From Glaucostegus cemiculus (Eukaryota), in assembly GCA_976551045.1 (NCBI GenBank), contig CDPCPM010000054.1, positions 38,068,001 to 38,132,000 on the forward strand: DNA of 64,000 nt, in the 5' to 3' direction. The notes beneath the pieces are model-generated. The model saw nothing but the letters and a program-made list of their open reading frames with translations, was not told where the DNA came from and did no database searches. Positions 7,167 through 53,411 of this stretch are shown here, piece by piece (within the stretch, counting starts at the first letter, position 1; every line of letters begins with the position of its first letter). The translations under genes and the position numbers were made by a program.

Positions 7167-7304
7167 AGCATATGTGGAGGAAAATGGACAGTCAATGTTT
7201 CAGGTCAAGACCCTTCATCAGTCCAGATGAAGAGTCTCGATCCGAAACATTGACTGTCAATTTCCCTCCACAGATGCTGCTTGACCTATTGAGTTGCTCC
7301 AGCA
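7167..7304. mobile_element. Penelope-like terminal remnant, inverted palindrome
   Basis: 7167-7221 is the reverse complement of ~7224-7278; followed by gatgctgcttgacctattgagttgctccagc. Confidence 0.8.
7190..7222 (-). ncRNA. Minimal hammerhead ribozyme-like motif
   Basis: Minus strand reads CTGATGA-agggtcttgacct-GAAAC-attgac: conserved boxes flanking a short helix II. Confidence 0.5.
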
Positions 7305-7525
7305 TCTCACTGCCCTCTGAAGAAGAAATGTCTTCACACCTCAGTTTTAAATGACCATCACTTTACCTCGTCGCTACTGTATGTCCCTTTGTTCGAGACT
7401 CTCCCACTCGTGAAAATATTGCAACATCTACCCTGTCAACCCTCTTAAGATCTTATATTTTGAATAAGGTCACCCCTCGTTTTTCTAATCTCCAAGGAAT
7501 ACATACTCAAACTGTATAGCCTGAA
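7305..7525 (-). mobile_element. CR1 3' fragment
   Basis: cacacctcagttttaaatgacc is shared with 9461-9485; aggtcacccctc motif. Confidence 0.7.
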
Positions 7526-9117
7526 TGTGTCAGTTGGCTGCTGTCTGGTCAGTTCTGTGTCATCACACAAGTGACCAACAATAATATTACAGAACCTAGA
7601 GAATTTACAGTGAACATCCAAACAAAGACAGGCCGTGAGATGAAGGAGGTGTCAAAGGAGCTGAGGTTTAACTATCTGTTTGCTTCTCTGAGCCTCTGTG
7701 ACCTGGCAGTTGATAAGATTTACAAGTCAGTTCATGAGTAACAATCACAGTTCTGCCAAGTCTGGATTTGTGAAAAAACAGACACTTAAACAGAAGGACA
7801 TTTCCTTAATGACAATGGACATGCTAAAGATTATTATGCACAGAATGACATGCAGAGTCCCCAATGTATCTTGTGATATGAAATGTAAGTTAATTGCAAA
7901 TTTATTGAAATTGTACTGAGATAAATGTAAGGCCGACACAAACAAGATAACATAGTTTGATCTCAGTTTCTGCGTGTTTTGAGGAGGTGGGATGAGCAAG
8001 ATTTGCAGCCTGTGGTTAAGGGGCAATTGGAAACTGCAGCAATGTCATACAAAGAACAGATCCTCGACAATGAATACACTGCAAACTGGAAGGGGCGATC
8101 CCTTCAGTCAACAGAAGACAATTAAGACAGGCACTGTAATGAGGAAGGGTGTTCTGGTTAATCAGCAGGAGATGAGAGTCATTGGGTCATTGGCCAGTTG
8201 ACAACCGGGACAACCATCATTACATGGGATTAGGCACATAATTTGAAGAGAAAGGGTATCAGAGGCTGCAATGTTAGCCATCACATTAAGTTATTGTAAT
8301 CCGTCAACTCAAGTAAAGGTCTGCCATCAAAGGATAATAAATTCTGGTCTGCTGTCATTTGTTAAATTCCTCCATCAGATTCTTGTACAGCCAGCAATGG
8401 ATTAACCCCTGCTTCTTGGTTGAGAAATATGTCTCACACCAAGTTGTAAACCACTGAGGCCCCGATACAACTTGATGCAACCAAACCTGCAGCAAGAATG
8501 CATTTAATCAAACCTACAATGTAGCTGTTAATTAGCTGCACTATAAAGGCACACATGGTGTGTGGATGCCTGCCAACTGCATTCAATGCCAGGCTCCATG
8601 ACTGCACCTGGTCACACTTGGAAAACTCTTATTGATTTAGAAAACATGTAAATGCTAAATAAATGAATAAATTAACGATTGATAATGTGTTGTTGGGCAA
8701 GCTGGCATCCCAGCTGTTGAAAGTTTGAGTCTTTCTGGATAAGATGAATTAGATGGCATATCTACAACATTTGTTGAAGCTAATGGAACTTTAAACTACA
8801 TTTTGAACACTGTTCCCATACATGTGCACAACTTTGCTATTCAGGCAGGACATGTGCTACTTAGCCACATGTTGTCTCTTTTAGCGTCATGTCATAATCT
8901 CTGCATTTGTGTAAAATTCCATTTACATGAAACAAATTCACAAGCATTTTAGTTGCAGACCAATTTATTTGAGAACTTGAAAACTGGAATTAAAACTGCT
9001 TTCTCCTAATAAACTGGGAAATCTTCATCTGTTACTAGTAGCAACAATACTCATTAGCAATACTCATGATTGTGAAGGATTGTGAGCTTGTTTCAACCTT
9101 TTTGACAGTGCTGGTTT

Positions 9118-10010
9118 CAGAGTCCTAGAGTCATAACGTCACAAAGCCCCAAAACAGGTCTGTTGGCTCACATTAGAGCACAAGAAAACAGGAACAAGAG
9201 TCGGCCCCTTGGCTTCTCAAGCCTACCCCACCATTCATTAAGATCATGGCTGAACAATACCGACCTCAACTTCCCTTGTGCCAGTTCCCCACCACACTTA
9301 ATTCCTCGATCTGGCAAGTACCTATCTATCTCCACCTTAAATATATCTAATGATCTATCTAAATATAATATAATGATATATCTAAATATATCTAATGATC
9401 CACCACCCGCGGGGCAGAGAATTCCAGAGATTCACCATCCCCTGAGAGAAGACATTTCTACACACCTCAGTTTTAAATGACCACCCTCTTATTTTGTACC
9501 TATATCTATGCTGACTGTTAAGCACCCACCAGTATCAATCCCATTTATTAGCACGTCCATATCCTTCCATGTCTTGGCAATTCAACTGGAACATAGAACA
9601 GTACAGCACAGGAACGGGCCCTTCGGCCCACAATGCTGTGCCAAACTAATTAAACACCTAACTAAACCAATCCCTTCTGCCAACACAATATCCATATTCC
9701 TCCATTTTCCACACATTCATGTGCCTATCTGAGAACCTTTCAAACGCCTTTATCGTATTTGCCTCCACTACCACTTCTGACAGCGCATTCCAGGCACCCA
9801 CCACTCTCTGTGTAAAAACCTTGCCCTGTAAATCTAATTGTTCAACTAGATATGTCTTAAACATTGTGAGAGTACCTGACCCTTCAAGGCAGTGCATCCT
9901 AGATCCCAAATAAAAATTCTTCCTTCGATCCTTTCTAAACTTCACCCTCTAGTTTCAGACATCTGTGCTGTGGGGAAAAGATTCCTTGTATCTACCTTAT
10001 CTAATGTTAT
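9118..10010 (-). mobile_element. Cluster of CR1 3'-end fragments
   Basis: ORF 9658..9945 FTQRVVGAWNALSEVVVEANTI; tails gaacatagaacagtacagcacagg and ggaacaagagtcggcc. Confidence 0.85.
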
Positions 10011-10857
10011 TGTAGAGAATCAAACCAGTGTTAATTTAGATATGCCTCACTTTAGACTAACAGTCTTCAAACTCACTGCTGCTGAAGAAATGATGATAAT
10101 TTGCTCCTTGCAGTCTTCTGGGCATTGAAGCTAGTGTGTGTTTTGTACCTGTTCTGTGACAGTGATATTCATATCAGACCTCAGGACACATTTTACTTTA
10201 CTTGTAATCTTTAAAACATTCGATTAGGACTTAAAAACAAACAGATGCTCTGTTTAGGATCGTTCACACAGTTAGGGCAGCAGGGACACAAGACTCCAAA
10301 CTGAGTCAGTGATTGCATGAATCCTTGTGGAGATAATGATGGTCCTCAAGAAACTGGTGAAACAGGACTGCTGTGAAGGCATTATTTAAGGTTTTGTATT
10401 TGCACACTGCTTGTTAGAAGCTGATTTATTCTTCCTTTTATTGTGTATTGCAAGGCATCATTCACAGGATGCTGGATTGATGCAGGCTTCCAATGACTGA
10501 ATACAAAGGTGCTTTTGCAAAGTACCTGATTCCAATAGTATTCACTTCAGGGAAGACAATGCAATGTAAACACAGGATACAGTTTCTCTTAATAATATAC
10601 ACATTCAGAGCTCAACACTGAAACCGAATGGAAGTAATCATAAAATGAGTGATTCTTTCTGCATTTGCCTTTGATGATCATTAATATTTACATATGCACT
10701 GGGTGAATGAGACCAATATCTGCATCTTTCTCTGATATGGTAGAATATCACCAAGTGACATTATTTTTCAGTTTCTTTTGTCCCTCTGTTGCTAATCTCT
10801 GAGGAAGATTTTCCTCAGATGAATGGACACAAAGCATTTAATTAGCTCCATCCATAA

Positions 10858-11403: not shown

Positions 11404-13871
11404 AAATCTTGGTGAAAACAAAAACACAGATTATTCTGTGCAGCTTTGTTGCCATTAATTACCATTCCAAACTGCACCAAGTGTTAGTATTATAAAGAGG
11501 GAGGAAACCTTCTTCCTTTTTTGCTTTCTGTGATGGCAGATAAATCAGCTTGTCCTTCAGCCCTGGACTCTGTCCCCTTGTTGCTCACACAGTGATTTAA
11601 AACATGGATGACCAATTCATGGCAATGTAACATCTCCAACAGTGCAGAAAGTCTGGTGTTCAAATATTCACCAAAGCAGTTCCTGTGTGTGGCCGTGAGA
11701 GTCAATTGGATGGTTTAGAGGCACTTCCACTTCAGAGTGGGCGTATTCCACGAAATTTAAAAAAAACAAAAATTGCAATCCAGATTTCTGTGCCTTTCCC
11801 AAAGTGTTATATTTGTAAAGATTTGTCAAAAATCAGAATATTAGCTTCAGTTGATATCAGCTCATATTTCTAAGGGTGCATTTCTGCAACCACACTTGCC
11901 CCCACTCCATTTTATCCTGATTAGATGGATAGAGGTTAGCTGTCCTTTCCTCCCAGTGGCTGGGGAGAAAGACGCTCCATTGCACGAGCCAGCTCAGTAT
12001 AACTTTGTCCAGGAATTTTACCCTCACTTGCAGAGCAAAACCAATTTACACTTTGCAAGTTTTATACATTAAACAGTGCTGAGGAAATATTAGTTGCTGA
12101 ATTGAGATTGGCTTCACACCAAATGCCCCAGGGACATTTTACCTGAACCTATCACAACAGGGAACCAACAAGATTGGATCAGCCATGCGATTTAACTTTA
12201 CGATGGAGGAAAATGTTCAAGTGACCCCTGCAGCCAGTTTCTGGGAGGTCTGTTTTGGAAAGTAGCTACTCAAAATAAACCTCTCAATATATTTATCTTG
12301 CTGCTGATTCCACTCCAAAGCATTCACATCTTGTGGGATCTGGAGGCAACATTATAATTTTCCATTAAAGACAAAAACACTTTTCAAACAACTGATCCAT
12401 TTAGCCTAAGGTTTGGTTCCTCATTTGTAGTGCGAACAATTAAACTGAGATGATTTCATTGTGCCTCAGGTTCTTCTGTGCTCGTCCACACACATTAATC
12501 TCAGTCTTAACGCGCTTCTTCCCATGGAATGAGCAGGAGAAATTGGAGTGGATGTGGTGATGTGGATATTAAATAGTTAAGATGCTAAAAAGGATCTCAA
12601 TTTGATGTGTCTGTCACCATTTTTACACTGCCACCGGTTGTACTCTGCAATTGCGGCCTACTTTAAATTTAATTATTGCTGGTTGGTTTACCCTAGGTTT
12701 GAGAAGCCCAGCAGCCAAATCCAGGAGGTTTATGCTGGTTCCAACAGCTATGTGTTAGCTATAGCACATCTTGTGAAGCAAGAGAATCTGGAGTTCTGAT
12801 ATTACCCTTCAATGAAGATTTCAGCCTTCACAATTTACTTCTTTGTCCTTTGCATCAATTATACCCCCACTACCCCATCCCCACAATCCTTAAGCTCCAA
12901 GATGCCACCTGAGGTCGCTAATACCCACCCTCCACTAACCCCCAATTTGCAACTTCCAATCCTCACATCCCTCAGCTGCCAATTGCCTTTTGCAAGGATC
13001 TCAGATTGAGACCCCCTACAGTATCACTGATTTTCCACTTGATGGAAAGACATTCAATTTGGCCAGTTGCTGTAAGTGAACAGGAAGAAAGAATTTTAAT
13101 GAAATCCTACTTGAGAAAAATCACCAGGATGTTCTCATTCTCTGCCTTGCTAGGATTTTCCAAGACTTATCTGGAAACATGGTGTGAAGATATCCATGTT
13201 ACCGAGCAACAAGAAGACTTCAATCTAGTTTCTGAAATCACTTTACTCAGTCATTGTGGAAGACTTCACCACCTCTCCCACCACCTTACCCTTAACATTA
13301 TAATCTCATTTAAATGCATATAAATAATCTCAGCTGGAGAGACTGAGTATCCACAAAAACATATTTAAGTCCCATCAGATAAAATATTTATCTAATAAGC
13401 AGTCATGAATTGTTTTCTTTCCATTTTTATCATCACATCATTCATAGCTCATTTCATTGCAAATGCCATTGAAATATTCTTTAAATATTTATTCCAAGTT
13501 GGAGACTGTGGGATGATACAATTTTGATAATGCCATATATTTCATTTTCTTTCTTTATCCTTGCATGCAATACTACTTTTTACAACAAAACAATCCATGA
13601 TTCAAATCATTAAATAACCTAGTGATAAATATCAGGACAAGAACAAACTTAAAGGGCTCTTTGCAATTTTAGCAGGCAACTAGTTTTGCCTTACCTAAGT
13701 GAATGAGGGTAGGTTTGATTAAATCATTCACTATTTTGTCATTTTAAGTTATCCACTCAGATAGTTTGAGGTAGCTTTCAGTTGCACTCTCAGTCTACGT
13801 TCCCTATCTCCTTATTTATGTCACAGAGAGTAAACTGACCAAGATGTAATATTGAATTGAAGCTTAAATCC

Positions 13872-13985
13872 AGTTCTGATGAAGGGTTTTCAAACCTGAA
13901 ATGTTAGCTCTACTTCTCTTTCCAGAAAAGCTGCCTGATCTGCTGGGAGTTTGCAGAATTTCTTTGCTTTTATTTCAAATCCATC
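13872..13985 (+). mobile_element. Penelope-like remnant with hammerhead core
   Basis: CTGATGA (13876-13882)-agggttttcaaacct-GAAA, then gctgcctgatctgctg. Confidence 0.65.
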
Positions 13986-16862: not shown

Positions 16863-17135
16863 AGATGAGATGAGATGAGATAAGAGACATCTTTGTAAGA
16901 GGTATCTTTCTGGGGGTAGCCCACAAGTGTCGCCACGTTTCCAGCGTTAACATAGCATGCCCATAACTTCCTAAATTGTACGTCTTTGGAATGTGGGAGG
17001 AAACCAGAGCACCCAGAGGAAACCCACACAGACATGGGGAGAAGGTACAAACTCCTTACAGACAGCGGCCGGAATTGAAACTGGGTTGCTGCCGCTGTAA
17101 CAGCATTACGCTAACCGCTACACTACTGTGCCTGC
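16863..17135 (-). mobile_element. tRNA-derived V-SINE, Rex-like-tail subfamily (A)
   Basis: Minus strand: A-box-like tagcggttagc, V-domain gggtttcctctgggtgctctggtttcctcccacattccaaagacgt, (catct)n tail. Confidence 0.9.
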
Positions 17136-17189
17136 AAGTTTGCAACACATCCATTTAATGTACCTGTCCAGTATAGAGGAATTGGTAGC

Positions 17190-18815: not shown

Positions 18816-19125
18816 TGTTTTTAACATTTTCTGTCCATCTATGTCATTCTTTGAGTCCAGCTTTCTCTTCTTATTTCTTGCATTTCTTCGTATTTGGTTT
18901 AACATTAATTTTTCCTTTCTGTCAATATTTCTCACCCTTTAGCTTACTTATATGCCCTGCTCAGTAAGGTCCCTGTACACTTGCCAAACCTTCAAGACTG
19001 TTCATATGTCTCCCAGAATTAAGTACAATCTCCCAGCAATAACTGACAGCAAACCAATCCCTCTGTCAGTAAGCAGGGGACAGTGCACGATCAGGCCATG
19101 GATTGAAGAGGACATGTACTTGAGC

Positions 19126-19345
19126 GAAGAACAAACTGCTGGAGGAACTCAGTGGGTCAGGCAGCATCTGCAGAGGCAGAGGGATGGTCAAAATTTCGGG
19201 TCAAGACCTTGCATCAGGACCTTCCTGGTCTTGACCTGAAACATTGACTATCCCTCTGACTTCACAAGTGCTGCCTCACTCACTGAGTTCCTCCGGCAGT
19301 TTGTTTTTTGGCTCTAAATTGTCGCATCTGCAGTCTCTTGTGCTG
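19126..19345. mobile_element. Penelope-like remnant, inverted palindrome
   Basis: ctgctggaggaactcagtgggtcaggcagcatctg...tttcgggtcaagacc / ggtcttgacctgaaac...gagttcctccggcag. Confidence 0.8.
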
Positions 19346-22025: not shown

Positions 22026-22061
22026 GTGGTACAATGGCACTGCTGGTAGAGATGTAACTTT

Positions 22062-22317
22062 TATAAATTTTTAAAGTTTTTATTTACAGCGTGGTAACAG
22101 GCCCTTTCAGCCCAATGAGTCCACACCGCTCATTTCAAACCCCCAAATTAACCTACCCATACGTCTTTAGAATGTGGGAGAAAACCGGAGCACCCGGAGG
22201 AAACCCATGCAGACACGGGAGAATGTACTTCACTCCTTACAGTCAGCAACGGGAATCGAACCCCGATCGCTGGCGCTGTAACAGCGTCGTGCTAACCGCT
22301 ACGCTATCGTGCTGCCC
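22062..22317 (-). mobile_element. V-SINE, short CR1-like-tail subfamily (B), TSD AACTTT
   Basis: aacttt at 22056-22061 and 22318-22323; tRNA head gggcagcacgatagcgtagcggttagc and ggggttcgattccc; CpGs retained. Confidence 0.92.
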
Positions 22318-23566
22318 AACTTTGCAGCGCCAGAGACTCAAGTTCAGGCCTGACCTGCTTTAGATGGGTTCAGACAGGTGCTGTCTGCATGGCGTTTGCA
22401 CGTTTTCCCTGTGACTATGTGAGTTTTCTCTGGGTGCTCCAGTTTCCTCCCACATCCCAAAGATGTGTGGATTCATAGGTTAAATGGCTACTGTAAATTG
22501 CCCCAAGTGTACTTGTGAGTGGTAAAATCTGGGTGGCGTTGATAGGAATGTGTGAAGAACAAAAAAATGGGATTAACATAAGATTAGTGTAAATGGGTGG
22601 TTGATCTTTAAAGGTCCTTTTACAGTTCTGTATCATGCTCCACCATAATAAAATGAAGTGCTCAAAGAAATAAAAGTTAAAGTTCCGAAATTGGAGTCTT
22701 GCAAAAATCGGCAATGAGAATTACTCCTCATTGGAAACCACTTCAATACTTATTGGAGGAACAAAGTCTTTAAATTCAAGGTAGCTACAAGGTATTGCAT
22801 AAAGATTGTGATCCAAAATTTACCTTTCAGACAATAGTAGCTCCCTTCAGTGTTGACTTCCAGGGACTTGATCTGTGAATCGGTTAGGTTAATCTTATTG
22901 ACTAAATGTGGCTAGCACTGGATGGCAAACCACAGAAGAAGCACGGACAGGCTTGGTAATGTATTGTTGTTGAATATAGTTTCATTATGATACCATTCCG
23001 GTGGCAATATGTTCAAAAGGCAGATTAATCTCTTGAATTAGACGCTGTATCCACTGTGTATACCAGTTTGTCTCTTGCATTATCCTGCTAATAATTGTTC
23101 AATTTTCAGTTCCAGCTCGACACTTTTTTTTAGTGCTTTTAAGTAGCAACTTCAGTTCTTTAAATGACAAGGGTAATAATTGGAACCATGTTCCTCATCA
23201 GGATGTAATGTTAAAATAGAATCATTTAATTTATTCCACCATTAGTTCAATGTCCTTCAGTTTGACAAACACCAAAGTGGCTGAATTGGAAGTGAACTTC
23301 TTTAAGTTCAACAGTCAGAGGTACAGACATGGATTCAAACGTAATGTGATCACAGCTGGCAATTTTGGAATGCTTCACAAACCTGGGGCTAAGATTCCTG
23401 CCCATCTAAATTTATGATATAAAAGGGCAAAAAACTGCAAGACAGTTTTATTTGCATAAAAAAGGCTAAGCATTTAAAATTCTTTTGGCACGTGTTTCTA
23501 TTAAAATGGCTGGAGAGAGATAGGAAACATGAGGATAGGAAAATGGCTGACAGGGAACTTTCCTTT

Positions 23567-23862
23567 CCTATCAGGTTCCATCATCTGCAGCCCTCTGCTG
23601 CCTCCACCTATCACCTCCCAGCCTCTGTCGCTATTTCCACCCTTCCCTCCTCCATTTTCCTATCACCCCTCCTCACCTGTAACTACTTATCACTTGCCAG
23701 TTCTGGATCTACCGCTTCCCTTCACCATCTTATACTAGCTACCTCCCTGTCTCTCAGCCCAGATGAGGAGTCTTGACTTGAAACATCGATTGTCTATTTT
23801 CCTCCGCAGATGCTGCCTGACCCACTGGGTTCCTCAGCAGTTTGTCTTTTGTTCCAAATTCC
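23567..23862 (+). mobile_element. Penelope-like 3' remnant with degenerate hammerhead core
   Basis: Pyrimidine-rich segment, then cagatgaggagtcttgacttgaaacatcga...gatgctgcctgacccactgggttcctc. Confidence 0.7.
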
Positions 23863-23921
23863 AATTCCAATACCAATTCCATTGCCATTGATGAGTCCTC
23901 CACCATCAACATCCATGGATA

Positions 23922-24609
23922 ACTGGTTTATGATTGTCACATGTACCAAGATACAGTAAAAAACTTTGTTCTGCATGCCATCAATACGGATCATTTCAAA
24001 ACTTAAGTACTTTGAGGGAGTACATGTGAAGAGCAATAACAGAATGCAAAGTATAGTGTAACAGTTACAGAGAAAGTGCATTGCAGGTAGACAATATGGT
24101 GCAAGGCGATAATGAGGTAGACTGTGAGAAAAGTTCATCTTTATCGTACAAAATGTCCCTTCAAGAGTCTTATAACAGCAGGATAGAAGCTGTCCTTGAG
24201 ACTAGTGGTGCATGTTTTCAAGCTTTTGTACCTTCTGTCTAATGGAAGGATGGAGAAGAGAGAATGACCTGGAAAGGAGGGGTCTTTGATTATATTGGCT
24301 GCTTTCCCAAGGCAGCAGGAAGTGTAAACAAATTCCGTGGAGGGGAGGCTGGTTTTTGTGATGGACTGAACTGCGTCCACAACTCTCAGCAATTTCTTGT
24401 CTTGGGCACAGCATTTGCCAAACAAAGCTGTAATGCATCTGGATAGGATGCCTTCTATGGTGCATCTATTAAAACTCATGAGGGTCAATGCAGACATGCC
24501 GAATTTCCTTAGCTTTTTGAGGAAGTAGAGGCGCTGATGTATTTTCTCGGCCATAGTGTCTACATGGTTGATCGAGGACAAACTATTGGTGATACTTTCA
24601 TCTAGGAAC
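23922..24609 (-). mobile_element. Rex1/Babar-type LINE 3' fragment
   Basis: ORF 24141..24638 RLYFLKKLRKFGMS...IIKDPSFPGHSLFSILP...SFYPAVIRLL is the C-terminal region typical of this clade. Confidence 0.85.
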
Positions 24610-26680
24610 AAAGGGACACGAGAAGGTCTTGGGCACATAAGAAGGCCTTGGCAAGCCGGGTTAAGGAAAACCCTAAGGTGTTCTGTACATATATGAGGAA
24701 CAAGAGGATGATTAGGATGAGGGTAGGACTGCTCAAGGATAAGTGGGGAAAATGTATCTGGGGGTGAAGGAGGTAGTGGAGGTCTTAAATGAATATTTTG
24801 CTGAAGTGTTCACCAGGGAGAGGGACTTAGATGAATGTGAGGTTAGCGTAGAACAGGCAAATGTGTTGGAACATGTCGAGGTTAAGAAGGAAGCAGGTTT
24901 GGAGCTACTAAAAATCATTAGGATAGTTAAGTTCCCGTAGTCGGACAGGATGTACCCCAGGTTACTATGGTAAGCAAGGGAAGGGATTGCTGGAGCATTA
25001 ACGATGATCCTTGAGTCCTCCCTGGCCACAGGAGTGGTACCAGAGGATTGGAAAATGGCAAATGTTCCATTGTTCAAGAAAGGTAAAAGGGATAATTGTG
25101 GGAATTATAGAACAGTGAGTCTTACATCAGTGGTGGGCAAACTATTGGAGAGGATTCTTGGGGACAGGACTTATGAACATTTGGAGAAGCATAGTCTTAT
25201 TAGGAATAATCAAAATGGCTTATGTGAATGGCAGGTCATGCCTTACGAGCCTAATAGAATCTTTTGAGGAAGAAACAAGACAAAGTGATGAAGGTGGTGT
25301 GGTGGATGTGGTAAATATGGATTTTAGCAAGGCATTTAACAAGGATCAAGGTTCCCCATGGTAGGCTCATCCAGAAAGTCATGAGGTATGGGATCTATGG
25401 AAAATTGGCTGTGTGGATTCAAAATTGGCTTGCCCACAGAAGGCAGAAGGTGGTTGTAGAAGGGGAGTATTCAATCTGGTGGTGGGTGTCCAGTGGTGTT
25501 CCACAGGGATCTATTATGGAACCCCTGCTCTCTGTGATTTTTATAAGTGATTTGGATGAGGAAGTGGAAGTATGGCTTGGTAAGTGTGCAGGTGACACGA
25601 AGGATGGTGGTGCAGTAGATCGTGAAGAAGGTTGTCTTAGGTTGCAATGGGATTTAGACAGAGCTGGGTGAAGAAGTGCCAGATAGATTTCAATCTGGAG
25701 AAGTGTGAAGTGATACACTTTGGAAGAATGAACTAAAAGGCAGAGTACATGGTTAATAGTAGGACTCTTAGCAGTGTGGAGGAACAGAGAAACCTTGGGG
25801 TCCAGGTACATTGATCCCTCAAAGTTACCGCACAAGTTAATGGGGCAGTTAAGAAGACGTATGGTGTGCTGGCCTTCATTAGCCGGGGGATTGAGTTCTA
25901 GAGCTGAGAGGTAATATTGCAGTTCTATAAGACTTTGGTTAGACCACACTTGGAATATTGTGTTCAGTTCTGGTCACCACATTATAGGAAGCACATGGAA
26001 ACTTTGGAGAGGGTGCAGAAGAGATTTACAAGGATGCTACTTGAGTTGGAGAACATGTATGAGGTTGAGCAAGTTAGGTCTTTTCTGTTTGGAGTGATGG
26101 AGGATGAGAGGAGACTTGATAGAAGTATATAAGATTATGAGAGGCATAGATAAGATAAGAAGATAAGATATATCTTTATTAGTCACATGTACATTGAAAA
26201 CATCTTTTGCATAGAGTGTTCTAGGGGCAGCTCACAAGTGTCGCCACACTTCCGGCGCCAATGTGGCATGCCCACAACTTCTTAACCTGTACGTCTTTGG
26301 AATGCGGGCACATCCGGAGGAAACCCATTCAGACACGGGGAAAACATACAAACACCTTACAGACAGCGGCCAGAATTCAACCTGGGTCTCTGGGGTCATA
26401 ATAGTGTTACTCTAACTGCTACACTACTGTGCCTGCCCTAGACAGAGAGGACAGCCAGCATCTATTCCCCAAGGTGGCAATGGCCAATACTTGATGTCAC
26501 CCATTTAAAATGTGTGGAGGAAAGTTCAGGGGAGATGTCAGAGGTAGGTTTGTTACACAGAGAGTGGTGGGTGCCTGGAATGCATCGCCAGAGGTGGTGG
26601 TGGAGGCTGATATGACAGGGTAATTTAAGAGACTATTGAATAGGTACATGGATGAAAGAAAAATGGAGAGTTACAAGTGA
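24610..26680 (+). mobile_element. CR1 LINE, 5'-truncated ORF2 with stops and frameshifts
   Basis: ORFs 25004 (VPEDWKMANVPLFKKG, NYRTVSLTS), 25158 (DFSKAFNK), 25381 (GVPQGS), 25917 (RPHLEYCVQFWSP). Confidence 0.95.
26150..26438 (-). mobile_element. V-SINE subfamily A nested in CR1
   Basis: (agata)n tail, tttattagtcacatgtaca, V-domain; possible TSD taga. Confidence 0.9.
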
Positions 26681-26682
26681 GG

Positions 26683-28121: not shown

Positions 28122-29000
28122 ATAGATTTCATAGATTTTCCATCACTTTCATAGATTTATACAGCATGGAAGCAAGCCCTTCGGCCCAACTCATCCATAC
28201 TGACCAAGCTGTCCTATCTCAGCCAATCCCATTTGCCTGTGTTTGGCCCATATCCTTATAAACCTTTCCTGTCCATGTACCTGTCCAAAGGTTTTTTGAA
28301 CAGTATAATTGTACCACATCTACCACTTCCACTGGCAGCTCATTCCATATACCCATCACTCTCTGGGTGAAAGACTTGCTGCTCAGATCCCCTTTAAGTC
28401 TTTCCCCTTTCATCTTAAACCTTTACGCTGCAGTTTTAGACTCCTCCACCCTGGGTAAAATACTGTGACTATCTGCTCTACCTACGCCCCTCATAGTTTT
28501 ATAAACCTCTGAGCGTCACCTCTCAGTCTCCTTCACTCCAGGGAAAACACTCTCAGACTATCCACTCTCTCCTTATCGCTCAAGCCCACTTGTCCTGGCA
28601 ACATTCTTGTGATTTTTTTTTCTGCACCCTCTCCAGCTTAATTACATCCTTCCTACAGAATGGAGGCCAGAACTGCACACAATATTCCTAGTGCGGTTTT
28701 CTCCAACATCTTGTAAAGCTGTAAAATGTGGCATCCAGCTCTTGTGCTTAATGCCCCAACCAATGAAGGCAAGCACGCCATCTGCCTGTTCACCATCCTG
28801 TCTACCTGTGTTACAACTTTCAGGGAATGATGTACCTGTATCCCTCGGTCTCTCTGTACAACAACACCCTGCCATTTACTGTACAAAGTCCTGCCCTGGA
28901 TTAATTTCCCAAAATTTATCACTTCACACTTGTCTCAGTTAAATTCCATCTGTCTTTCCTTTGCACACTTTTCCGTTTGATCTATATCCCATTGTAAATT
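28122..29000 (-). mobile_element. CR1 3' fragment
   Basis: ORFs 28219..28413 and 28653..28922 are CR1-like; CR1 tail. Confidence 0.9.
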
Positions 29001-33345: not shown

Positions 33346-36292
33346 TAGATAGAGAGGCTTTGCGGAAGGAGAAGCAGAGTACAGGCTATAAAAGTAGTAA
33401 AGTGGATGGACTAAAGTGTGTTTACTTTAATGTGAGAAGCATCAGGAAAAAGGGAGATGAACTGAGGGCTTGGTTAAGTATGGGGGACTATGATATTGTG
33501 GCTATTACTGAGACATGGTTGACGTCAGGGCAAGAATGGATATTGAACATTCCTGGCTTTCAGTGTTTTAAAAGGGATGGGGGGGGGGGGAGAAGTGGAG
33601 GAGGGGTGGTGATATTGGTCAGAGACGCTGTTACGGCTGCGGAAAGGGTGGATTTTGCAGAAAGATCCTCTCTAGAGTCAGTATGGGTGGAAGTGAGGAA
33701 CAAGAAAGGAGCGGTTACACTACTGGGAGTATACTATAGGCCCCCGGTAGCAGTAGAGATATAGAGGAGCAGATTGGCAGGCAGTGTTTGGACAGAAGCA
33801 AAAATAATAGGGTTGTTATAATGGGAGATTTCAACTTCCCAGATATAGACTGGGACATGCTTAGTACCAAAGGTTTAGAAGGGAACGAGTTTGTTAAATG
33901 TGTCCAGGATAGATTCCTGATGCAATATGTTGACAGGCCGACTAGAGGGTATGCCATGTTGGATCCAGTTTTAGGAAATAAACCAGGACAGGTGAGGGAT
34001 CTACTGGTGCGTGGACATTTGGGGGACAGTGATCATTGCTCCATAACCTTTAGAATTATCATTCACAGGGATGGGTGCAGAGAGGACAGGAAGATATTTA
34101 ATTGGGGAAGGGCGGACTATGAGGCTATAAGGAGAGAACTGGAGTGTAAATCGGTAAGTCCTTTTTGAAGGGAAATGTACTATGGAGATGTGGACGATGT
34201 TCAGGGATCTTTTACAGGATGCTAGGGATAAATATGTCTCAGCGAGGCAGAGAAGGAATGGCAGGGTGAAGGAACCGTGGGTGACGAGAGAGGTGGAATG
34301 ACTGGTTAGGAGGTAGAAGGCGGCGTACATAAGGTGTAAGCAGCAAGGCTCAGACAGGGCCCATGAGGAATATAGTGTAGCAAAGAAGGAACTTAAGAAA
34401 GGGCTGAGGAGAGCTAGAAGGGGACATGAATAGGCGTTGGCTAGTAGGGTTAAGGAAAATCTCAAGGCTTTTTTCTCGTATGTGAAGGACAGAAGGATGG
34501 CTAGGGTGAAGGTAGGTCCGATTAAAGACAAAGGTGGGAGGATGTGCCTGGTGGCGGCGGAAGTGGGAGAGGTTCAAAATGAATACTTCTCTTCGGTATT
34601 CACCAAGGAGAGGGGTCTTGATGACATGGTAGAGAGTGCTGGTAAGAGTAATGTTCTCGAGTATGTAGATATCAAGAGGGAGGATGTGTTGAAGTTGTTA
34701 AATAATATCAAGACAGATAAGTCTCAGGGGCCTGACAGTATATTCCCCAGGCTGCTTCGAGAGGCGAGGGAGAGATTGTTGATCCACTGGTGAGGATCTT
34801 TGAGTCCTCGTTGTCCACAGGGATGGTACCGGAGGATTGGAGGGTGGCGAATGTTGTCCCCTTGTTCAAGAAAGGTAGTAGGGATAGTCCAGGGAATTAC
34901 AGACTGGTGAGTCTCACGTCTGTGGTGGGTAAGCTGTCAGAAAGGATTCTAAGGGACAGGATCTATGAACACCTGGAGAGTCATGGACTGATTAGGGACA
35001 GTCAGCATGGCTTTGTGAAGGGAAGATCCTGCCTCACGAGCCTCAAATTCTTTGAGGAGGTGACGAGGAAGATTGATGAGGGCAGTACGGTGGATGTGGT
35101 CTATGTGGATTTTAGTAAGGCATTCGATAAGGTTCCTCATGGAAGGCTTCTTCAAAAGGTTAGAGGTCAAGGGATCCAGGGAAGATTGGCTGTGTGGATC
35201 AGGAATTGGCTTGCCTGTAGAAAGCAGAGGGTTGTGGTGGAGGGAGTGCCCTCAGATTGGAGGGCTGTGACTAGTGGTGTCCCGCAGGGATCAGTTCTGG
35301 GACCTCTACTCTTTGTTATATTTATAGATGACTTAGATGAAGGGATGGAAGGATGGGTTAGTAAGTTTGCGGATAACACCAAGATTGGCGGTGTAGTGGA
35401 TAGTGTGGAGGGCCATCGGAGCTTACAGAGGGATATTGATAGGATGCAGAGCTGGTCGGACAAGTGGCAGATGGAGTTTAATCCAGTGAAGTGTGAGGTG
35501 TTGCACTTTGGTAGGACAAACTCCAGGGCAGCGTACAAGGTAAAGGTCAAGGTACTTGGCAGTATAGAGGAGCAGATGGATCTGGGGGTTCATATCCACA
35601 ATTCACTCAAAGTTGCCTTGCAGGTGGATAGGGCAGTTAAGAAGGCCTATGGGATGTTAGCTTTTATAAATCGTGGGATTGAATTTGAGAGCCGCGAAGT
35701 GGTAATGCAGCTTTACAAAACTCTAGTAAGACTTCACTTAGAGTGCTGTGTTCAGTTCTGGTTGCCGCATTATAGGAAGGATGTGGAGGCGTTGGAGAGG
35801 GTACAGAGGCGATTTACCAGGATGATGCCTGGATTAGAGTGTATGGAATATAAGGAGAGGCTTAAGGAGCTAGGGCTTTACTTATTGGAGAGGAGGAGGA
35901 TGAGAGGAGACTTGATAGAGGTGTATAAAATTTTGAGAGGAATAGATAGAGTTGACAGCCAGTGCCTCTTTCCCAGGGCACAGATGCTCAAGACGAGAGG
36001 GCATGGCTTTAAGATATTGGGTGGAAAGTTTAGGTGAGATGTCAGAGGGAGGTTTTTCACCCAGAGAGTGATTGGTGCATGGAATGTGCTGCTTGGGGTG
36101 GTGGTGGAGGCAGATATGTTGGACAGGTTCACGAGATTGTTGGATAGGCATATGGAGGAATGTGGGATAGAGGGATACGTGGGAGGAAAGAGTTAGCTCG
36201 TGTGAGGTTTGATGGATGGCACAACACGGTGGGCTGAAGGGCCTGTATTATGCTGCAGTGTTCTATGGTTTTTGGTTATGTTCTATGTTCTA
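33345..36292 (+). mobile_element. Young CR1 LINE with near-complete but disabled ORF2 (APE endonuclease + RT) and 3' UTR
   Basis: APE motifs YFNVRSI, VAITETW, GVYYRPP, IMGDFNFP, LGDSDH; RT motifs DFSKAFDKV, GVPQGSVLGP, KFADNTK; (ttctatg)-like tail. Confidence 0.97.
33400..36037 (+). pseudogene. CR1 ORF2 pseudogene
   Basis: Split over ORFs 33297, 33788, 34437 and 34790 by frameshifts; in-frame TGA at 34299 and nearby TAG stops; catalytic FADD reads FADN. Confidence 0.92.
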
Positions 36293-39510: not shown

Positions 39511-39589
39511 AAAAATTGGAAAGGCAGGACATTTTTTGTTTTGATGCTGAGTGTCCAAAAAGTAATTTAAGTAATTGAACAAAATCTGG

Positions 39590-41885: not shown

Positions 41886-41889
41886 CTTA

Positions 41890-42894: not shown

Positions 42895-43193
42895 AGGCTT
42901 GCAGCGGTTAGCAGAATGTTATTACAGCACCAGAGACCTGGGTTCAATTCAGCCACTGTCTGTAATGAGTTTGTACGTTCTCCCCGTATCTGCATGGGTT
43001 TCCTCCAGGTGCTCCAATTTACTCCCACACTCCAAAGATGTATGGATTAGGAATTTGTGGGCATGCTATGTTGGCGTCGGAAGCGTGATGACACTTGCAG
43101 GCTGTCCCCAGAACACTCTACACAAAAGATGTATTTCACTGTGTGTTTTGATGTACATGTGACTAATAAAGACATCTTATCTTACAGAATGAT
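42895..43193 (+). mobile_element. V-SINE subfamily A
   Basis: gcagcggttagc, gggttcaattc, V-domain, tttcactgtgtgttttgatgtacatgtgactaataaag tail. Confidence 0.9.
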
Positions 43194-43209
43194 CAAGAAA
43201 AGCAGTATC

Positions 43210-43742: not shown

Positions 43743-45072
43743 TGTGGTTGTTATAATGGGAGATTTCAACTTCCCAAATATAGACTGGAACCTGCTTAGT
43801 GCCAAAGGTTTAGCAGGAACAGAGTTTGATAAATGTGTCCAGGATGGATTCCTGACGTAGTATGTCGACAGGCTGACTAGTGGGAATGCAATGTTAGATC
43901 TAGTTTTTGGAAATGAACCGGGACAGGTGAAGGATCTGTTGGTGGGTGAGCATTTGGGGGACAGTGACCATTGCTCCATAACCTTTAAAATTGTTATGGA
44001 CAGGGATAGGTGCAGAGAGGACAGGAAGATATTTAATTGGGGAAGGGCGGACTATGAGGCTATAAGGGGAGAACTTGGGAGTGTAAATTGGGATGTCATT
44101 GGGAAAATGTACTATGGAGATGTGGATGATGTTCAGGGATCTTTTACAGGTTGTTAGGGATAAACATGTCCCGGCGAGGCAAAGAAGGAATGGCAGGGTC
44201 AAGGAACCGTGGGTGATGAGAGAAGTGGAATGACTGGTTAGGAAGAAGAAGGCAGCATTCATAAGGTGTAAGCAGCAAGACTCAGACAGGGCCCATGAGG
44301 AATATAGTATAGTAAGAAAGGACTGAGGAGAGCTAGAAGGGGACATGAAAAGGCTTTGGCTAGTAGGGTTAAGGAAAATCTCAAGGCTTTTTTCACATAC
44401 GTGAAGGACAGAAGAATGGCTAGGGTAAAGGCAGGTCTGATTAAAGACGAAGGTGGGAGGATGTGCCTGGAGGCGGCAGAAGTGGGAGAGGTTCTAAATG
44501 AATACTTCTCTTCGGTATTCATCAAGGAGAGGGGTCTTGATGACATGGTAGAGAGTGCTGGTAAGAGTAATGTTCTCGAGTATGTAGATATCAAGAGGGA
44601 GGATGTGTTGAAGTTGTTAAATAATATCAAGACAGATAAGTCTCCAGGGCTTGACAGTATATTCCCCAGGCTGCTTCGAGAGGAAAGTGAGGAGATTGTT
44701 GAACCGCTGGTGAGGATCTTTGAGTCCTCGTTGTCCACGGGGATAGTACTGAAGGATTGGAGGGTAGTGAATGTTGTCCCCTTGTTTAAAAAAGGTAGTA
44801 GCGAAAGTCCAGGGAATTACAGACCAGTGAGTCTCACGTCTGTGGTGGGTAAACTGTTAGAAAGGATTCTAAAGGATAGGATCTATGATCACCTAGAGAA
44901 TCACAGACTGATTAGGGACAGCCAGCATGGGCTTGTGAAGGGAAGACCTTGCCTTACAAGCCTTAGAGAGTTCGTTGAGGAGGTGACGAGGAGACGAGGA
45001 AGATTGATGAAGGCAGTGCGGTGGATGTGGGCCTGTTTCTGTGCTGTATTACTCTGTGATTACATGACTCTA
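43743..45072 (+). mobile_element. CR1 ORF2 segment (APE C-terminus to RT start), same subfamily as 33345-36292, joined to a CR1 tail
   Basis: ORF 44356 is nearly identical to ORFs 34437/34790; at ~45030 it jumps to ggcctgtttctgtgctgtattactct. Confidence 0.95.
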
Positions 45073-45074
45073 CG

Positions 45075-45930
45075 GTTGGAAAGGGGACAGAAGAGTGTTA
45101 TGAGAATGTTGTCAAGACTGGTAAAATGGGTTGAAAAAAGATGGGGCTTAATCCAGACAAATGTTAGATGATGCACTTTGGTAGTGCTAATGAGGCTAGG
45201 ACATTCACCCTGAATGGTATGGTATTGAGGAGCAGAGGGACCTTGGAGTGCAAATCCAGAGATCCTTGAAGGTGGCAATACAGGCAGATAATATGGTTAG
45301 GAAGGCATATGGAATATCAGCCCTCATTACTATGGGCAATGAATACAGAAGTAAAGAGGTTATGCACCAACCTTATATAACCTTGGTCAGATCTCAGCCG
45401 AAGTATTGTGTAGGAGTTCTGATCGCCATGCTATTGGAAGGATATGATAGTGCTGGAGAGGGTGCAGAGGAGATTCACCAGGATGTTGCCTGGAATGGAG
45501 CATTTTAGTTATGAGGAGAGACTGGAGGAGCCAGGTCTGTTCTCCCTGGAGTGGTTAAAATGAGACATAATTGAGAGATATAAAATTATGAAGGGTATAG
45601 ATAAGTAGACTGCAGGAAACCTTTCCCCATATCAGGCATAGGTAAAACTAGAGGATATAGATTTAGAGTAAGGAGGAAGAGATTCAGAGGGATATGAGGT
45701 GAACTTTCTTCACCCAGAGAGTGGTAAGTACCTGGGGTGCACTGTTACAGAGAGTGATGGAACCAGTGTCGCTAACAGCATTTAAGAAGTGCCTGGAGGA
45801 GCACTGGAATTGCCCAGGCATAAAGGGCTACAGACCAAATGCTGGGAAATGGGATTAATATACAAGGGTACCAACTTGTCAGTATGGACATGTTTGGCCA
45901 ACTGGCCTGTTACCATGGTATGACCCCATG
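45075..45930 (+). mobile_element. Older CR1 3' fragment
   Basis: ORF 45248; ctggagagggtgcagaggagattcaccaggatgttgcctgga. Confidence 0.88.
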
Positions 45931-45947
45931 ATTTCAAAGTTAAATCT

Positions 45948-47992: not shown

Positions 47993-47994
47993 CA

Positions 47995-49240: not shown

Positions 49241-50477
49241 TCCAGCACCAGTTGCAATTTGCACTTCACTGGGGACTCCCAAACTTTGTTCCAACAGAGT
49301 ACATCAGTGGAATATGCAATTACAGAAACTAACAGAATAATATGCAGGGAATCTGTCCACTGAATCTGTACCAGGTGAAACCTGGTGCATGAAGGAATAA
49401 GAATGGCTGTGAAGATCAAAGGTATTGTCATTTATATTTTTGAAGCATTTGAGTTTATTTAAGAGAGTTTAAAAAAAAATATTTACAATGTTCCAAATTG
49501 TTCTTAAAAGTTTTAGTTTGGGGGTTTATAAAAATATTTTTGTAATTTAATTTGTTAAATTAATTTTTGATTGTTTTTGAATGTTGCTGAACTTCAGAGA
49601 TTGCAGTAAGATCCACCAATGTAATCAGGCTGACTTGTGAGCAAGGTAGGATTCATAAAGGTCAGTTTGTTCTGCCACAAACATGAGAAGCTTATCATTG
49701 GCTGGAGATTTGGCACAGTATATCAGTCTTCTAATGAGAAGTTGACTGCTGGCTGGAAGTTAGGTCCATTACTAGCTAATGAGAAAATGTTTTGCTTTGA
49801 AAATTCATACAGGTTGCAAACAACTTACTAACAGTCTTTGGGTTAATTAACTAATTGTACATATTTTCACTCCTTGCCACTTCTATTATCCTTGTTGTTT
49901 GACAATAATTTTCTTCTTTAATGTTTAGCTCATCCATAACTTGCTTTAAAAGTGGATTCATTGCAGAACAGATAATATTGAAATACAAGGTCAAATGAAG
50001 TCAGACATTTGCAAATGTGATACACAAGACTTCCTTTTTTTCTTCTTCTTCTACATATCAGCAATTTGAAATGTATTTAAGTCACTCCTTTAATTCAAAA
50101 CAAAGCCTATCTCAGCTTATGCGATAAGGTAATGTAATTGTCACCCAAAGGGAATCCAATTACCAAAAGCCTAAACCTAAGGCAACCGGGGCAGCTTGTA
50201 GCTGGAAACTCTGCTTTGAGACTCTGCAAACCTACACATGATGTATCTCTTTGTAATTTTGCTCTTTTTCTTCCTTGCTCTCAATGAGAAAGATAACAAA
50301 ATACACCAAAGAGTAGATTAATATAATCTACTGACTGCACAGTCAGTCACTCACACCACAACTGGCAGTTATCAACAACCTTATATGGATTGTTTAAATT
50401 ATTTCACTTACATAAATCTTAAATAGTAAGCTTTTCTGAGCTAATATAAAAATATAATGTTTTGTTTTTTCTATATA

Positions 50478-50782
50478 GGGCAGGCACAATAGTGTAGCGG
50501 TTAGCGTAACGTTATTACAGCGCCAGCGACCCGGGTTCAATTCCGGCCACTGTCTGCAAGGAGTTTGTACATTCTCCCAGTGACTGTGTGGGTTTCCTAC
50601 GGGTGCTCCGGTTTCCTCCCGCATTCCAAAAATGTACGGTTTAGGAAGATGTAGTCATGCTATGTTGGCACCGGAAAGCATGGCGACATTTGTGGGCTTC
50701 CCCCAGAAGACTCTACGCAAAAGATGGATTTCACAGTGTGTTTCCATGTACATGTGACTAATAAAGATATTTTACATTATCT
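50478..50782 (+). mobile_element. V-SINE subfamily A
   Basis: gggcaggcacaatagtgtagcggttagcgtaacg...gacccgggttcaattccggcc...gtacatgtgactaataaagata. Confidence 0.93.
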
Positions 50783-50783
50783 T

Positions 50784-51625: not shown

Positions 51626-51704
51626 GTGATCCATGGTGCTTTCAGAAGACCTCCACTGCACTTTCTTGAAAATGCAAAAAGTCACCAGTTTTACCAACAG
51701 CACA

Positions 51705-52830
51705 CACTTACATGGAATATATGGTGACGAAAAAAGCCACTTGGTCCAATTAGTCCTTGATGGCAATTATCCTCCACAGAAAGCCTCCTCCTATGCTTCA
51801 CTAGAATCTCCTCCCTATTCCCTCAGTTAAATCTATCAGTACAGTCCTCTGCTCTCTTCTCTCCAACAATGCTTTCTCAGCCTCCTCTTAAATGAATGCA
51901 TACTCTGTACTTCAACCACACTCTGTGGTAGCAAATTCTGCATCGTCAACACTAATAGGGTAAGAAAGTTACCTTTGAATTCTCTATTGGATTTCTTGGT
52001 GACTATCAATATAAGCAAGGAACAAACTGCAGGAGGAAGCCAGCAGATCAGACAGCTTCTGTGGAGAGAAAAATATAGTTGATATTTCGGGTTGAGACCC
52101 CTTATCTAGTCCAGATGAAGGGTCTCAACCTGAACTGTTGACTGTCCATTTCCCTCCAAAGATGCTGCCTGACCTATTGAGTTCCTCCAGCAGTCTTTTA
52201 TTTTGCCCCAGATTCTAGCACCTGCAGTCTCTTGTGTCTCCATCAATAGACTGTGAGCATCTAGTTATGCTTTTTTTCAGAACATTCCATCAAAACCTTT
52301 CATAATTTTAAATGCCTCTATTAAATCATTCCTCAGGTCTTTTTTCCACTGTCTGTTCATCCTTTCCTGAAACATATACTGTCACACTTTTGATATCATC
52401 CTTCTAAATCTCCTCTGCATACTCTCCAATGCCTCTTTGCTCGTTTTAAGATAGTGTGACCAGAGTGACATGCAGTATTCAAAATGCACCCTGACCAAGG
52501 ATCAAAGCAGGTTATGGATTATTTCCCTGCTGCCATTTCTTTCTGTCTGGAAATAAACTGAGTACTGAGGTTGATTTCTTCTGAAGGCCTTGCTAACTTG
52601 TGGTGGAAATTTTAGTGATTGGTGCATTTGTACTCCAAGATCTCTTTGTTCCTCAATCCCACCTAATTGCTCATTTTCCAGGTAATGTGGCCTCTTTATT
52701 GCCTTTACAAAATGTACTACTTCACATTTATCCTATTGAACTACAGCTACCAATTTTCTTCCCATTCTGCATCTATCTGAGAGATCTTTGCCAGTCTCTG
52801 GTATTTTCTATGTTCATTGTACAATTATAG
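51705..52830 (-). mobile_element. Old CR1 fragment interrupted by a Penelope-like palindrome
   Basis: ORF 51836 LPQSVVEVQSMHSFKRRL; ctctgcatactctccaatgcc, gtgaccagagtgacatgcagtattcaa. Confidence 0.7.
52018..52241. mobile_element. Penelope-like remnant, inverted palindrome
   Basis: tttcgggttgagacccc.tatct / cagatgaagggtctcaacctgaa, centred at ~52110; ends ctgcagtctcttgtgtctcc. Confidence 0.8.
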
Positions 52831-52939
52831 GTGTCCATGCCTTCAGCTGTCTTGGCTCTAAATGCTGGAATTCCATCTCTAAACCCCTCCATCTCCATTC
52901 TTTCCTTTAGACACACCTCAAAGGCTCCTGTTTCGATCT

Positions 52940-53106
52940 CTCGACTTTATACTGGCCATCTCCTGTCTCCACTCTCAGTCCTGATGCAGGGTTTCGACCC
53001 AAAATGTCGATGATTCCTTTCCTGCCACAGATGCTGCTCAACCCACTGAGTTCCTCCAGCAGATAATTACCCCAGATTCCACCATCTGCAGTCTATTGTA
53101 TCTCCT
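52940..53106 (+). mobile_element. Penelope-like remnant with hammerhead-like core
   Basis: ctcagtcCTGATGcagggtttcgacccaaaatgtcga...gatgctgctcaacccactgagttcctccagc. Confidence 0.78.
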
Positions 53107-53244
53107 TAAAATGAGCCTTGACCTCTGTCAATATCTACTTCCATGTCTTAAACCAAATTTTAATCAATACTGCTTCTGTGAAGATCTTGGGATATTTTCA
53201 TACATTAAAGGCACGGTGTAAGTGTTAATTGTCAATTAAATGTT

Positions 53245-53411
53245 AATTGTCGACGTTTCGGGTTGAAACCCTGCATCAGGACCTGATGCAGAGTTTCAGC
53301 CTGAAACATTGACAATTCCTTTCCTCCCATAGATGCTGCATGACCCACTAAGTTCCACCAGCAGATTGTTTGTTGCTCCAGATACAGCCTCTGCAGTCTC
53401 TTGTGTCTCCA
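53245..53411. mobile_element. Penelope-like remnant, inverted palindrome centred at 53281
   Basis: aattgtcgacgtttcgggttgaaaccctgcatcagg|a|cctgatgcagagtttcagcctgaaacattgacaatt. Confidence 0.85.

What the first reader, a model, noticed from the sequence alone, without database searches (positions are those of the whole stretch)
7167..53411. Family of seven hammerhead-ribozyme-like motifs in Penelope-type remnants
Seen: loci at 7167, 13872, 19126, 23567, 52018, 52940 and 53245 share the consensus CTGATG(A/C)A-GGGT(ctcg)ACCC-GAAAC(G/A)T(C/T)GAC followed by gatgctgcctgacc.ctgagttcctccagc. Established: CUGANGA + helix II + GAAA + NUH is the hammerhead core, and Penelope-like elements carry minimal hammerheads with almost no helix III that are thought to act as dimers. 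Inference: these are non-coding Penelope pseudo-LTR remnants, about one per 9 kb here, invisible to the ORF track. Most copies carry core mutations and are probably inactive.
Basis: partly seen in the sequence, partly recalled or inferred. Interest (0 to 1): 0.7.

Follow-up and report, generated by a model that had tools for sequence, protein, structure and literature searches.

The report
Penelope transposon stubs with decayed hammerheads
The seven motifs are real, worn end-pieces of a very abundant jumping gene of a known kind (Penelope-like), each carrying a damaged copy of a small self-cutting RNA motif that is likely inactive here; the one less ordinary point is that two changes in the motif's core were inherited from parent lineages that spread anyway.

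Summary
Confirmed and mostly ordinary. The seven loci (12 arms at 8 loci; four loci are head-to-head inverted pairs) are end fragments of Neptune-type Penelope-like retrotransposons. They carry the minimal type I hammerhead described by Cervera and de la Pena 2014. The motif lies downstream of a GIY-YIG gene end in 30 of 32 endonuclease-selected loci, and RT, endonuclease and motif are collinear in 13 of 24 RT-selected loci. Density is 147 arms per 800 kb sampled (roughly 5x10^5 per genome), so this window is typical. No arm in the window is intact. Two additions: (1) most short copies begin at the first A of helix I, about 30 nt behind an AT-rich box, likely the element's transcription start, not the cleavage site; (2) the core changes U4A and A9C, carried by six of the seven loci, are fixed in subfamilies with their own endonuclease lineages (4,522 and 4,439 exact copies), so these elements likely spread without a canonical ribozyme. 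Cleavage and transcription are untested. This scan noted the same family, the start-site pile-up and a core-altered lineage before, in this and other genomes.

The parts
7150..7225 (-). Left (inverted) arm of a head-to-head pair; core letters intact, helix I 5' strand lost at the junction, 15.2-16.2 decayed to C-A
7219..7308 (+). Right arm, subfamily S3 (U4A); helix II 3 of 4 pairs, 15.2-16.2 C-A
13872..13980 (+). Solo stub of the oldest subfamily S4; begins at the A of helix I; best preserved copy in the window (11 core letters intact, 15.2-16.2 U-G); possible 7-bp target duplication 13866-13872 / 13977-13983
   Evidence: S4 assigned by eye from diagnostic letters; a duplication of this length is only suggestive
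19123..19221 (-). Left arm of an inverted pair, subfamily S6 (A9C), short 3' end without tail
19227..19342 (+). Right arm, S6, starts inside helix II (core 5' half missing), long 3' end with tail
23557..23866 (+). S3 (U4A) copy with about 200 nt of the element's pyrimidine-rich 3' non-coding region upstream of the motif (motif from 23755)
52012..52111 (-). Left arm of an inverted pair, S3, core broken (C3, U4, G8 changed), no tail
52108..52241 (+). Right arm, S3 (U4A, A15.1C), with tail; possible 9-bp target duplication with one mismatch around the whole pair (52005-52013 / 52242-52250)
52939..53105 (+). S5 (A9C, also G12A) copy with about 35 nt upstream, including the AT-rich box; motif from 52976, with tail
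53245..53283 (-). Short left arm of an inverted pair, S5 (A9C), otherwise undecayed motif
53280..53410 (+). Right arm, S5 (A9C), with tail
57585..57623 (-).

Best explanation
These are decayed pseudo-LTR end fragments of Neptune-type Penelope-like retrotransposons, each carrying a minimal type I hammerhead motif that is likely inactive where it now sits. Shown: in longer copies elsewhere in the genome the order is reverse transcriptase, Zn-finger-like linker, GIY-YIG endonuclease, 220-720 nt of non-coding DNA, hammerhead, then 3' ends near +100 or +130. Inferred mechanism: the element's RNA would begin at the A in the 5' strand of helix I (initiator-like TCAGT, AT-rich box at -28 to -31). The element's protein would nick target DNA and start reverse transcription inside the RNA about 100 or 130 nt downstream, as shown in vitro for the anole element. 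Copying to the RNA's 5' end gives a 100-135 nt stub that begins at the hammerhead; extension of both nicked strands, joined at their 5' edges, would give the inverted pairs with a tail on one arm. The template was likely uncleaved RNA. After insertion, CpG decay hits 11.1/G12, 15.2/16.2 and 17/1.1. Three of six subfamilies already carried U4A or A9C in their source elements.
For: ORF link: 30 of 32 distinct endonuclease-selected loci have a same-strand family hit downstream, 27 of 32 at 245-430 nt (about 0.6 expected from the density); 13 of 24 RT-selected loci show RT, endonuclease, motif in order. RT, linker CX4CX2C and CCHH/GIY-YIG motifs are read; the CX2-5CxxC linker marks Neptune/Nematis. 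5' edge: 25 of 38 unselected copies that end between -146 and +8 end at -4..+8 (13 of 155 positions, p 2e-18; 55 copies scored, 13 run past -147, 4 start after +8). No pile-up at the cleavage site. Exact counts rise at the edge: purine at -2 1,625; non-C at -1 4,743; non-A at +1 6,226. 15 of 19 copies with a purine at -1 have no upstream homology. 5 of 40 solo copies have a strong target duplication (control 0.3%), 4 of the 5 ending at 0 to +2. AT box at -28..-31 in five subfamilies. Two 3' end peaks near +100 and +130 match the tail and the two RT starts. CpG core positions differ in 26-44% of cells against 4-16% at other core positions. The endonuclease tree follows the hammerhead subfamilies with 5 changes, the least possible (shuffled mean 15.6, 0 of 200).
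Against: No RNA evidence of any kind: start site and lack of cleavage are read from DNA ends only. The sequence at the edge is also a good splice acceptor (pyrimidine tract, CAG; branch-like CTAAC in some S4 copies), and in D. virilis the intron ends at helix I and the promoter is internal and TATA-less. Only S2 has a canonical TATATA; the others have TTTAT-type boxes, measured on copies picked for pyrimidine-rich upstream DNA. The edge is ragged (0 to +8), and the excess of G at -1 is modest (40 of 100, p 0.0015). Pfam gave only a weak RVT_1 match (E 0.0015, below cut-off; 1 of 9 fragments), so the clade call rests on motifs. No full-length element or intact ORF was found (longest frame over an RT or endonuclease match 312 aa), so the 5' half of the element was not seen. 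Helix II shows no covariation.
Confidence: 0.8

Rival explanations
1. Same elements, but the shared 5' edge marks a splice acceptor: copies come from spliced RNA or from templates arrested at the intron-exon junction, as the D. virilis intron ends at helix I.
For: Pyrimidine tract and CAG right at the edge in all subfamilies, branch-like CTAAC in some S4 copies; D. virilis precedent.
Against: Short copies share no upstream exon; target duplications end at 0 to +2 in 4 of the 5 strongest cases; many copies keep the A and G that splicing would remove.
Confidence: 0.1
2. The A9C subfamilies (S5, S6) still encode a working ribozyme: the C is an extra, bulged nucleotide between G8 and A9, and the following invariant A is the true A9.
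For: The 'extra' position is A in the majority sequence of all six subfamilies (40 of 40 and 35 of 36 filled cells in S6 and S5), while the position before it varies; some core insertions are tolerated in natural hammerheads.
Against: Helix I is also shortened to three pairs in S5 and about half of S6; other insertions near the core impair cleavage; no paper testing this insertion was found. It does not help the U4A subfamily.
Confidence: 0.3
3. The short and palindromic units are a non-autonomous element of their own (a MITE- or retrozyme-like family) copied as a unit.
For: They are short, very many, some with target duplications, and the inverted pairs fold as long hairpins (z -9.9 and -15.3).
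Against: Junctions differ from copy to copy (45 pairs); stubs fall in the same subfamilies as ORF-linked copies; no tandem array of the unit in the window, which retrozymes require.
Confidence: 0.05
4. Inverted pairs and the shared edge arise because the cDNA folds back on the short quasi-palindrome formed by helix I and the core.
For: Several junctions are centred on it (7219/7225, L003, L004, L007); self-priming was proposed for PLE palindromes.
Against: 17 of 27 unselected copies with this edge have no inverted arm; the U4A subfamily lacks the perfect palindrome yet forms pairs there. It may still act as the joining step.
Confidence: 0.15

Closest known systems
Minimal type I hammerheads (min-HHR) in pLTRs of metazoan Penelope-like elements (Cervera and de la Pena 2014, PMC4209133)
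   Same: Type I order, extra nucleotide before G10.1, G10.1-C11.1, palindromic 15.2-16.2 with no loop III, mostly single dispersed motifs, some close pairs on opposite strands.
   Different: Helix II is only 4 bp; copy number is far higher (28,624 exact half-motifs against about 4,000-9,000 motifs in coelacanth and Xenopus, different search methods); three subfamilies carry U4A or A9C, not mentioned in the parts read (supplements not seen).
EN+ Penelope-like elements of the Neptune clade (Craig et al. 2021, PMC8557442)
   Same: RT then CX2-5CxxC linker then GIY-YIG with CCHH; heavy 5' truncation; inverted 5' copy; 30-40 bp tail on one end.
   Different: No intact or full-length copy found; Neptune versus Nematis not separated by an RT tree; no microsatellite targeting seen in the flanks read.
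Poseidon_Ac of the green anole (Frangieh et al. 2024, PMC11167929)
   Same: Hammerhead upstream of two internal RT start sites that bound the tail; both strands extended in vitro; hammerhead mutants still insert in vitro; no ends at the cleavage site.
   Different: Different clade; there the ORF starts at stem II, here the ORF start was not found; here whole lineages with a changed core left thousands of copies.
Adineta vaga Pen2a (Arkhipova et al. 2013, PMC3846280)
   Same: pLTR with putative TATA box and initiator-like sequence, inverted pLTR, tail, target duplication, palindrome at the junction.
   Different: Here the initiator-like sequence is the 5' strand of hammerhead helix I and most short copies begin at it.
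Non-LTR retrozymes (bioRxiv 10.64898/2026.07.22.740005)
   Same: Non-coding, type I hammerhead, derived from PLE pLTRs, reported in one chondrichthyan.
   Different: Retrozymes are head-to-tail tandem arrays; these are dispersed solos and head-to-head pairs.

Membership tests
min-HHR (type I) | Core CUGANGA / GAAA / UH in type I order with helices I and II | tested here: met
   Majority sequences of S1, S2, S4; 170 exact copies. Not met at U4 in S3 or at A9 in S5/S6.
min-HHR (type I) | Extra nucleotide before G10.1, G10.1-C11.1 pair, palindromic 15.2-16.2 | tested here: met
   S4 majority has G-U at 10.1-11.1.
min-HHR (type I) | Covariation in the helices | tested here: inconclusive
   Helix II invariant between subfamilies while loop II, N7 and H17 vary; one compensatory change in helix I (C-G 183 copies, U-A 22, one lineage).
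min-HHR (type I) | Intact motif in the window's own copies | tested here: not met
   0 of 10 arms that cover the core; 1 of 73 core-covering arms in the 800-kb sample.
min-HHR (type I) | Self-cleavage as dimer or with protein help | not testable with these tools
   Needs an in vitro assay.
Rfam hammerhead families | Match to a covariance model | tested here: not met
   No match in the window nor in four loci with intact or near-intact motifs; the models do not detect this minimal form.
EN+ Penelope-like elements | RT followed by C-terminal GIY-YIG upstream of the pLTR | tested here: met
   in other copies; no ORF remnant in the window itself. Pfam RVT_1 weak.
EN+ Penelope-like elements | Inverted pLTR arrangement and one-sided 30-40 bp tail | tested here: met
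EN+ Penelope-like elements | Full pLTR-ORF-pLTR unit or partial tandem | tested here: not met
   Longest element pieces about 2.9 kb, all 5'-truncated and broken; searches score only the best 150 candidates.
Neptune clade | CX2-5CxxC linker between RT and endonuclease; CCHH in the endonuclease | tested here: met
   Linker motif readable in 10 of 32 endonuclease loci, the endonuclease CxxC in 19 of 32; the rest are truncated or decayed.
Neptune clade | Placement in an RT phylogeny with reference elements | not tested
   No reference PLE proteins were fetched.
Non-LTR retrozyme | Head-to-tail tandem units each with a hammerhead | tested here: not met
   (no such array).

The most novel reading that the evidence does not exclude
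Autonomous Penelope-like lineages in this genome spread to many thousands of copies with a hammerhead core changed at the source (U4A once, A9C once, each with its own endonuclease lineage; 40 of 75 classified unselected copies), while the oldest and the younger lineages keep the canonical core. Either self-cleavage is dispensable for retrotransposition in vivo and the motif is kept for another role at the very 5' end of the RNA, where its helix I doubles as the transcription initiator, or A9C is an untested functional core variant.
Probability: 0.55. Interest if true: 0.45.

Novelty: new member of a known kind. Interest (0 to 1): 0.27.

Why it matters
The window itself is ordinary transposon debris. 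The family is useful as a fossil record of a poorly understood replication cycle: hundreds of thousands of ends map where the RNA template began and where reverse transcription started, and natural lineages with changed cores give ready constructs to test whether Penelope hammerheads must cleave in vivo, a question left open by Cervera 2014 and Frangieh 2024. For annotation, such motifs should be filed as repeat remnants, not as host ribozymes.

Tried and rejected
Rfam scans: no hammerhead match in the window or in four loci with good motifs, uninformative. Pfam on nine ORF fragments: one weak RVT_1 and one chance SAM_PNT match. PDB sequence search: chance matches only. ESM Atlas gave no result for two fragments. 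RNA runs: no RNA holder listed, no evidence either way. Search for an intact ORF: none among the best 150 candidates of each of two searches. Tandem arrays of the unit: none in the window. Folding three monomer copies: no hammerhead fold, z -0.58, -0.36, +1.40. Selection on individual copies: in the two subfamilies least biased by my pattern searches core and flank differ equally (S2 0.042 vs 0.040, S4 0.160 vs 0.163); the lower core rates in the others are confounded by sampling on the core. A young-looking group with long shared flanks (L011-L015, L035-L037) is a duplicated host region, not an active element; 7 of the 8 and seven other duplicate or self loci were left out of later counts. 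Target duplications at five of the seven window loci: none above chance. PMC544870 held nothing on insertions at position 9.
Full report
Observation. The seven loci carry the motif. A profile built from window and genome copies finds 12 arms at 8 loci in the window and none in reversed sequence. Four loci (7150-7308, 19123-19342, 52012-52241, 53245-53410) are head-to-head pairs joined at the motif's 5' edge; two of them were folded and form long hairpins (z -9.9 and -15.3), so a transcript through them would likely bury the motif. The window is G000:C54:38068001-38132000 of a 2.85-Gb genome; its long frames are mostly LINE-type RT pieces by my reading. That the host is a ray or shark is inferred from recall and from earlier AI notes; no call names it.

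Abundance. Exact patterns give 170 matches for 31 nt (control 0) and 28,624 for an 18-nt degenerate half (control 10). Eighty 10-kb stretches taken at round coordinates on large contigs hold 147 arms (reversed control 0), 1.84 per 10 kb (bootstrap 1.49-2.23), about 5x10^5 if the rest of the genome is alike. The window's 12 arms in 64 kb match that average.

Link to a Penelope ORF. Upstream of many copies lies the end of a GIY-YIG frame. Selecting loci by that protein piece alone (41,717 first-look candidates), 30 of 32 distinct loci have a same-strand family hit downstream, 27 of them at 245-430 nt. Selecting by an RT piece, 13 of 24 loci show RT, endonuclease and motif in order. Broken frames show RT motifs, a DKG-like motif, a CX4CX2C linker and the CCHH endonuclease; motif names other than those are recalled. 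The linker marks Neptune or Nematis. Pfam gave only RVT_1 at E 0.0015 for 1 of 9 fragments. No intact ORF or full-length element was found, and the window holds no ORF remnant.

The ribozyme motif. The canonical subfamily reads as a type I minimal hammerhead: 5-bp helix I, CUGAUGA, an extra A, 4-bp helix II, GAAA, palindromic CG, UC cleavage triplet. This matches the features listed by Cervera and de la Pena. Mixture clustering of 294 arms gives six subfamilies. S1 is canonical. S2 has A7, U17, a changed loop II and a mismatch in helix I. S4, the most diverged (0.18 at non-CpG sites), has a compensatory U-A for C-G in helix I. S3 has U4A; S5 and S6 have A9C and a shortened helix I. Helix II does not covary; it is invariant. 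Rfam detects none of these forms.

Core changes are lineage-fixed. U4A has 4,522 and A9C 4,439 exact matches. In the first 100 matches of the degenerate pattern, U4A outnumbers U4C and U4G on the U7 background (11, 3, 1) and A9C outnumbers A9G and A9U (16, 1, 1) (counted by hand). A tree of 42 endonuclease segments, independent of the motif, needs only 5 label changes for six subfamilies, the least possible (shuffled mean 15.6, 0 of 200); S5 and S6 group together (96/77), and S3 is not resolved as one group (bootstrap not fully settled, S4 has one row, S5 two). In the unselected sample 40 of 75 classified copies belong to S3, S5 or S6, as do six of the seven window loci. Mean divergences are S4 0.18, S6 0.14, S3 0.13, S5 0.095, S1 0.091, S2 0.079, so S5 is not clearly older than S1. 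Core mutations mostly cause drastic loss of activity; that U4A and A9C do so here is inferred. In the anole element hammerhead mutants still insert in vitro.

Decay. CpG positions in the core differ in 26-44% of cells against 4-16% at other core positions. Of 73 core-covering arms in the sample, 8 keep the 11 core letters, 3 also the 15.2-16.2 pair, 1 also both helices. In the window none of 10 core-covering arms is whole; 13872 is closest.

Ends. 5' ends pile up at -4..+8 around the A of TCAGT (25 of 38 copies ending between -146 and +8, p 2e-18; copies scoring under 90, mostly S4, were dropped). There is no pile-up at the cleavage site. An AT-rich box sits at -28..-31 in five subfamilies. 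Target duplications are strong in 5 of 40 solo copies (control 0.3%) and 4 of the 5 end at 0 to +2, with no shared upstream exon. I read this as the transcription start. A TATA plus initiator-like pair in a pLTR was already proposed for Adineta; D. virilis differs, and the splice-acceptor reading remains a rival. 3' ends peak near +100 and +130, the tail known from PLEs. Junctions of 45 pairs vary, so pairs are likely separate events; 10 of 27 unselected copies with this edge have an inverted arm.

Literature seen. PMC4209133 parts 1-2 of 4; PMC11167929 parts 1-2 of 4; bioRxiv 10.64898/2026.07.22.740005 part 1 of 5 and passages; passages of PMC8557442, PMC6155905, PMC2377424, PMC3846280, PMC544870; PMC3088659 passages and section 8. 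No supplements were read; Cervera's supplementary alignments and the preprint's tables may list chondrichthyan motifs or these core variants. Searches found no paper on hammerheads in shark or ray PLEs or on U4A/A9C lineages; the library lacks most subscription papers, and Repbase and Dfam were not available.

Earlier notes of this scan describe the same family in this and other genomes, the start-site pile-up, and a lineage with A6C in another genome. I had written down my reading before looking; the notes gave me PMC3846280.

Verdict. Real, correctly interpreted, a new member of a known kind; interest 0.27.

Noticed in passing
L011-L015, L035-L037 (G000 C3, C4, C31, C32): An S1-type copy sits inside a multi-kb unit duplicated many times (about 68-99% identity over the flanks); L035 ends in an open frame that looks like a 7-transmembrane receptor (by eye), so this is likely an expanded receptor gene family carrying the stub along.
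   Followed up: partly
window 34420-36267, 43746-45171, 24631-26152, 28149-29001 and others: Many fragments of LINE-type elements (endonuclease and RT frames, longest 433 aa at 34736-36037); 33811-35099 and 43746-45030 are 89% alike. CR1/L2 identity is from recall.
   Followed up: no
window 24141-24809, 55169-55696, 60963-61463: A second LINE-like family (frames on the minus strand at the first two places), 70-85% alike between copies.
   Followed up: no
window 16887-17144, 22059-22326, 26145-26446, 30191-30458, 42900-43182, 50470-50778, 53557-53725, 59352-59643: A dispersed family of about 250-300 bp, 75-87% alike, possibly a SINE.
   Followed up: no
window 5210-5327 and 6719-6836: A 118-bp direct duplication at 98% identity, much younger than the other repeats.
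   Followed up: no
all subfamily majority sequences, about +50 to +88 after the motif start: The stretch downstream of the hammerhead is nearly as constant across the six subfamilies as the ribozyme core; it may be the protein-binding or RT-start signal.
   Followed up: no
L210:2700-2760 region: An endonuclease end runs directly into the RT-side part of the ORF on the same strand without a pLTR between them, a possible partial tandem with a deletion.
   Followed up: no
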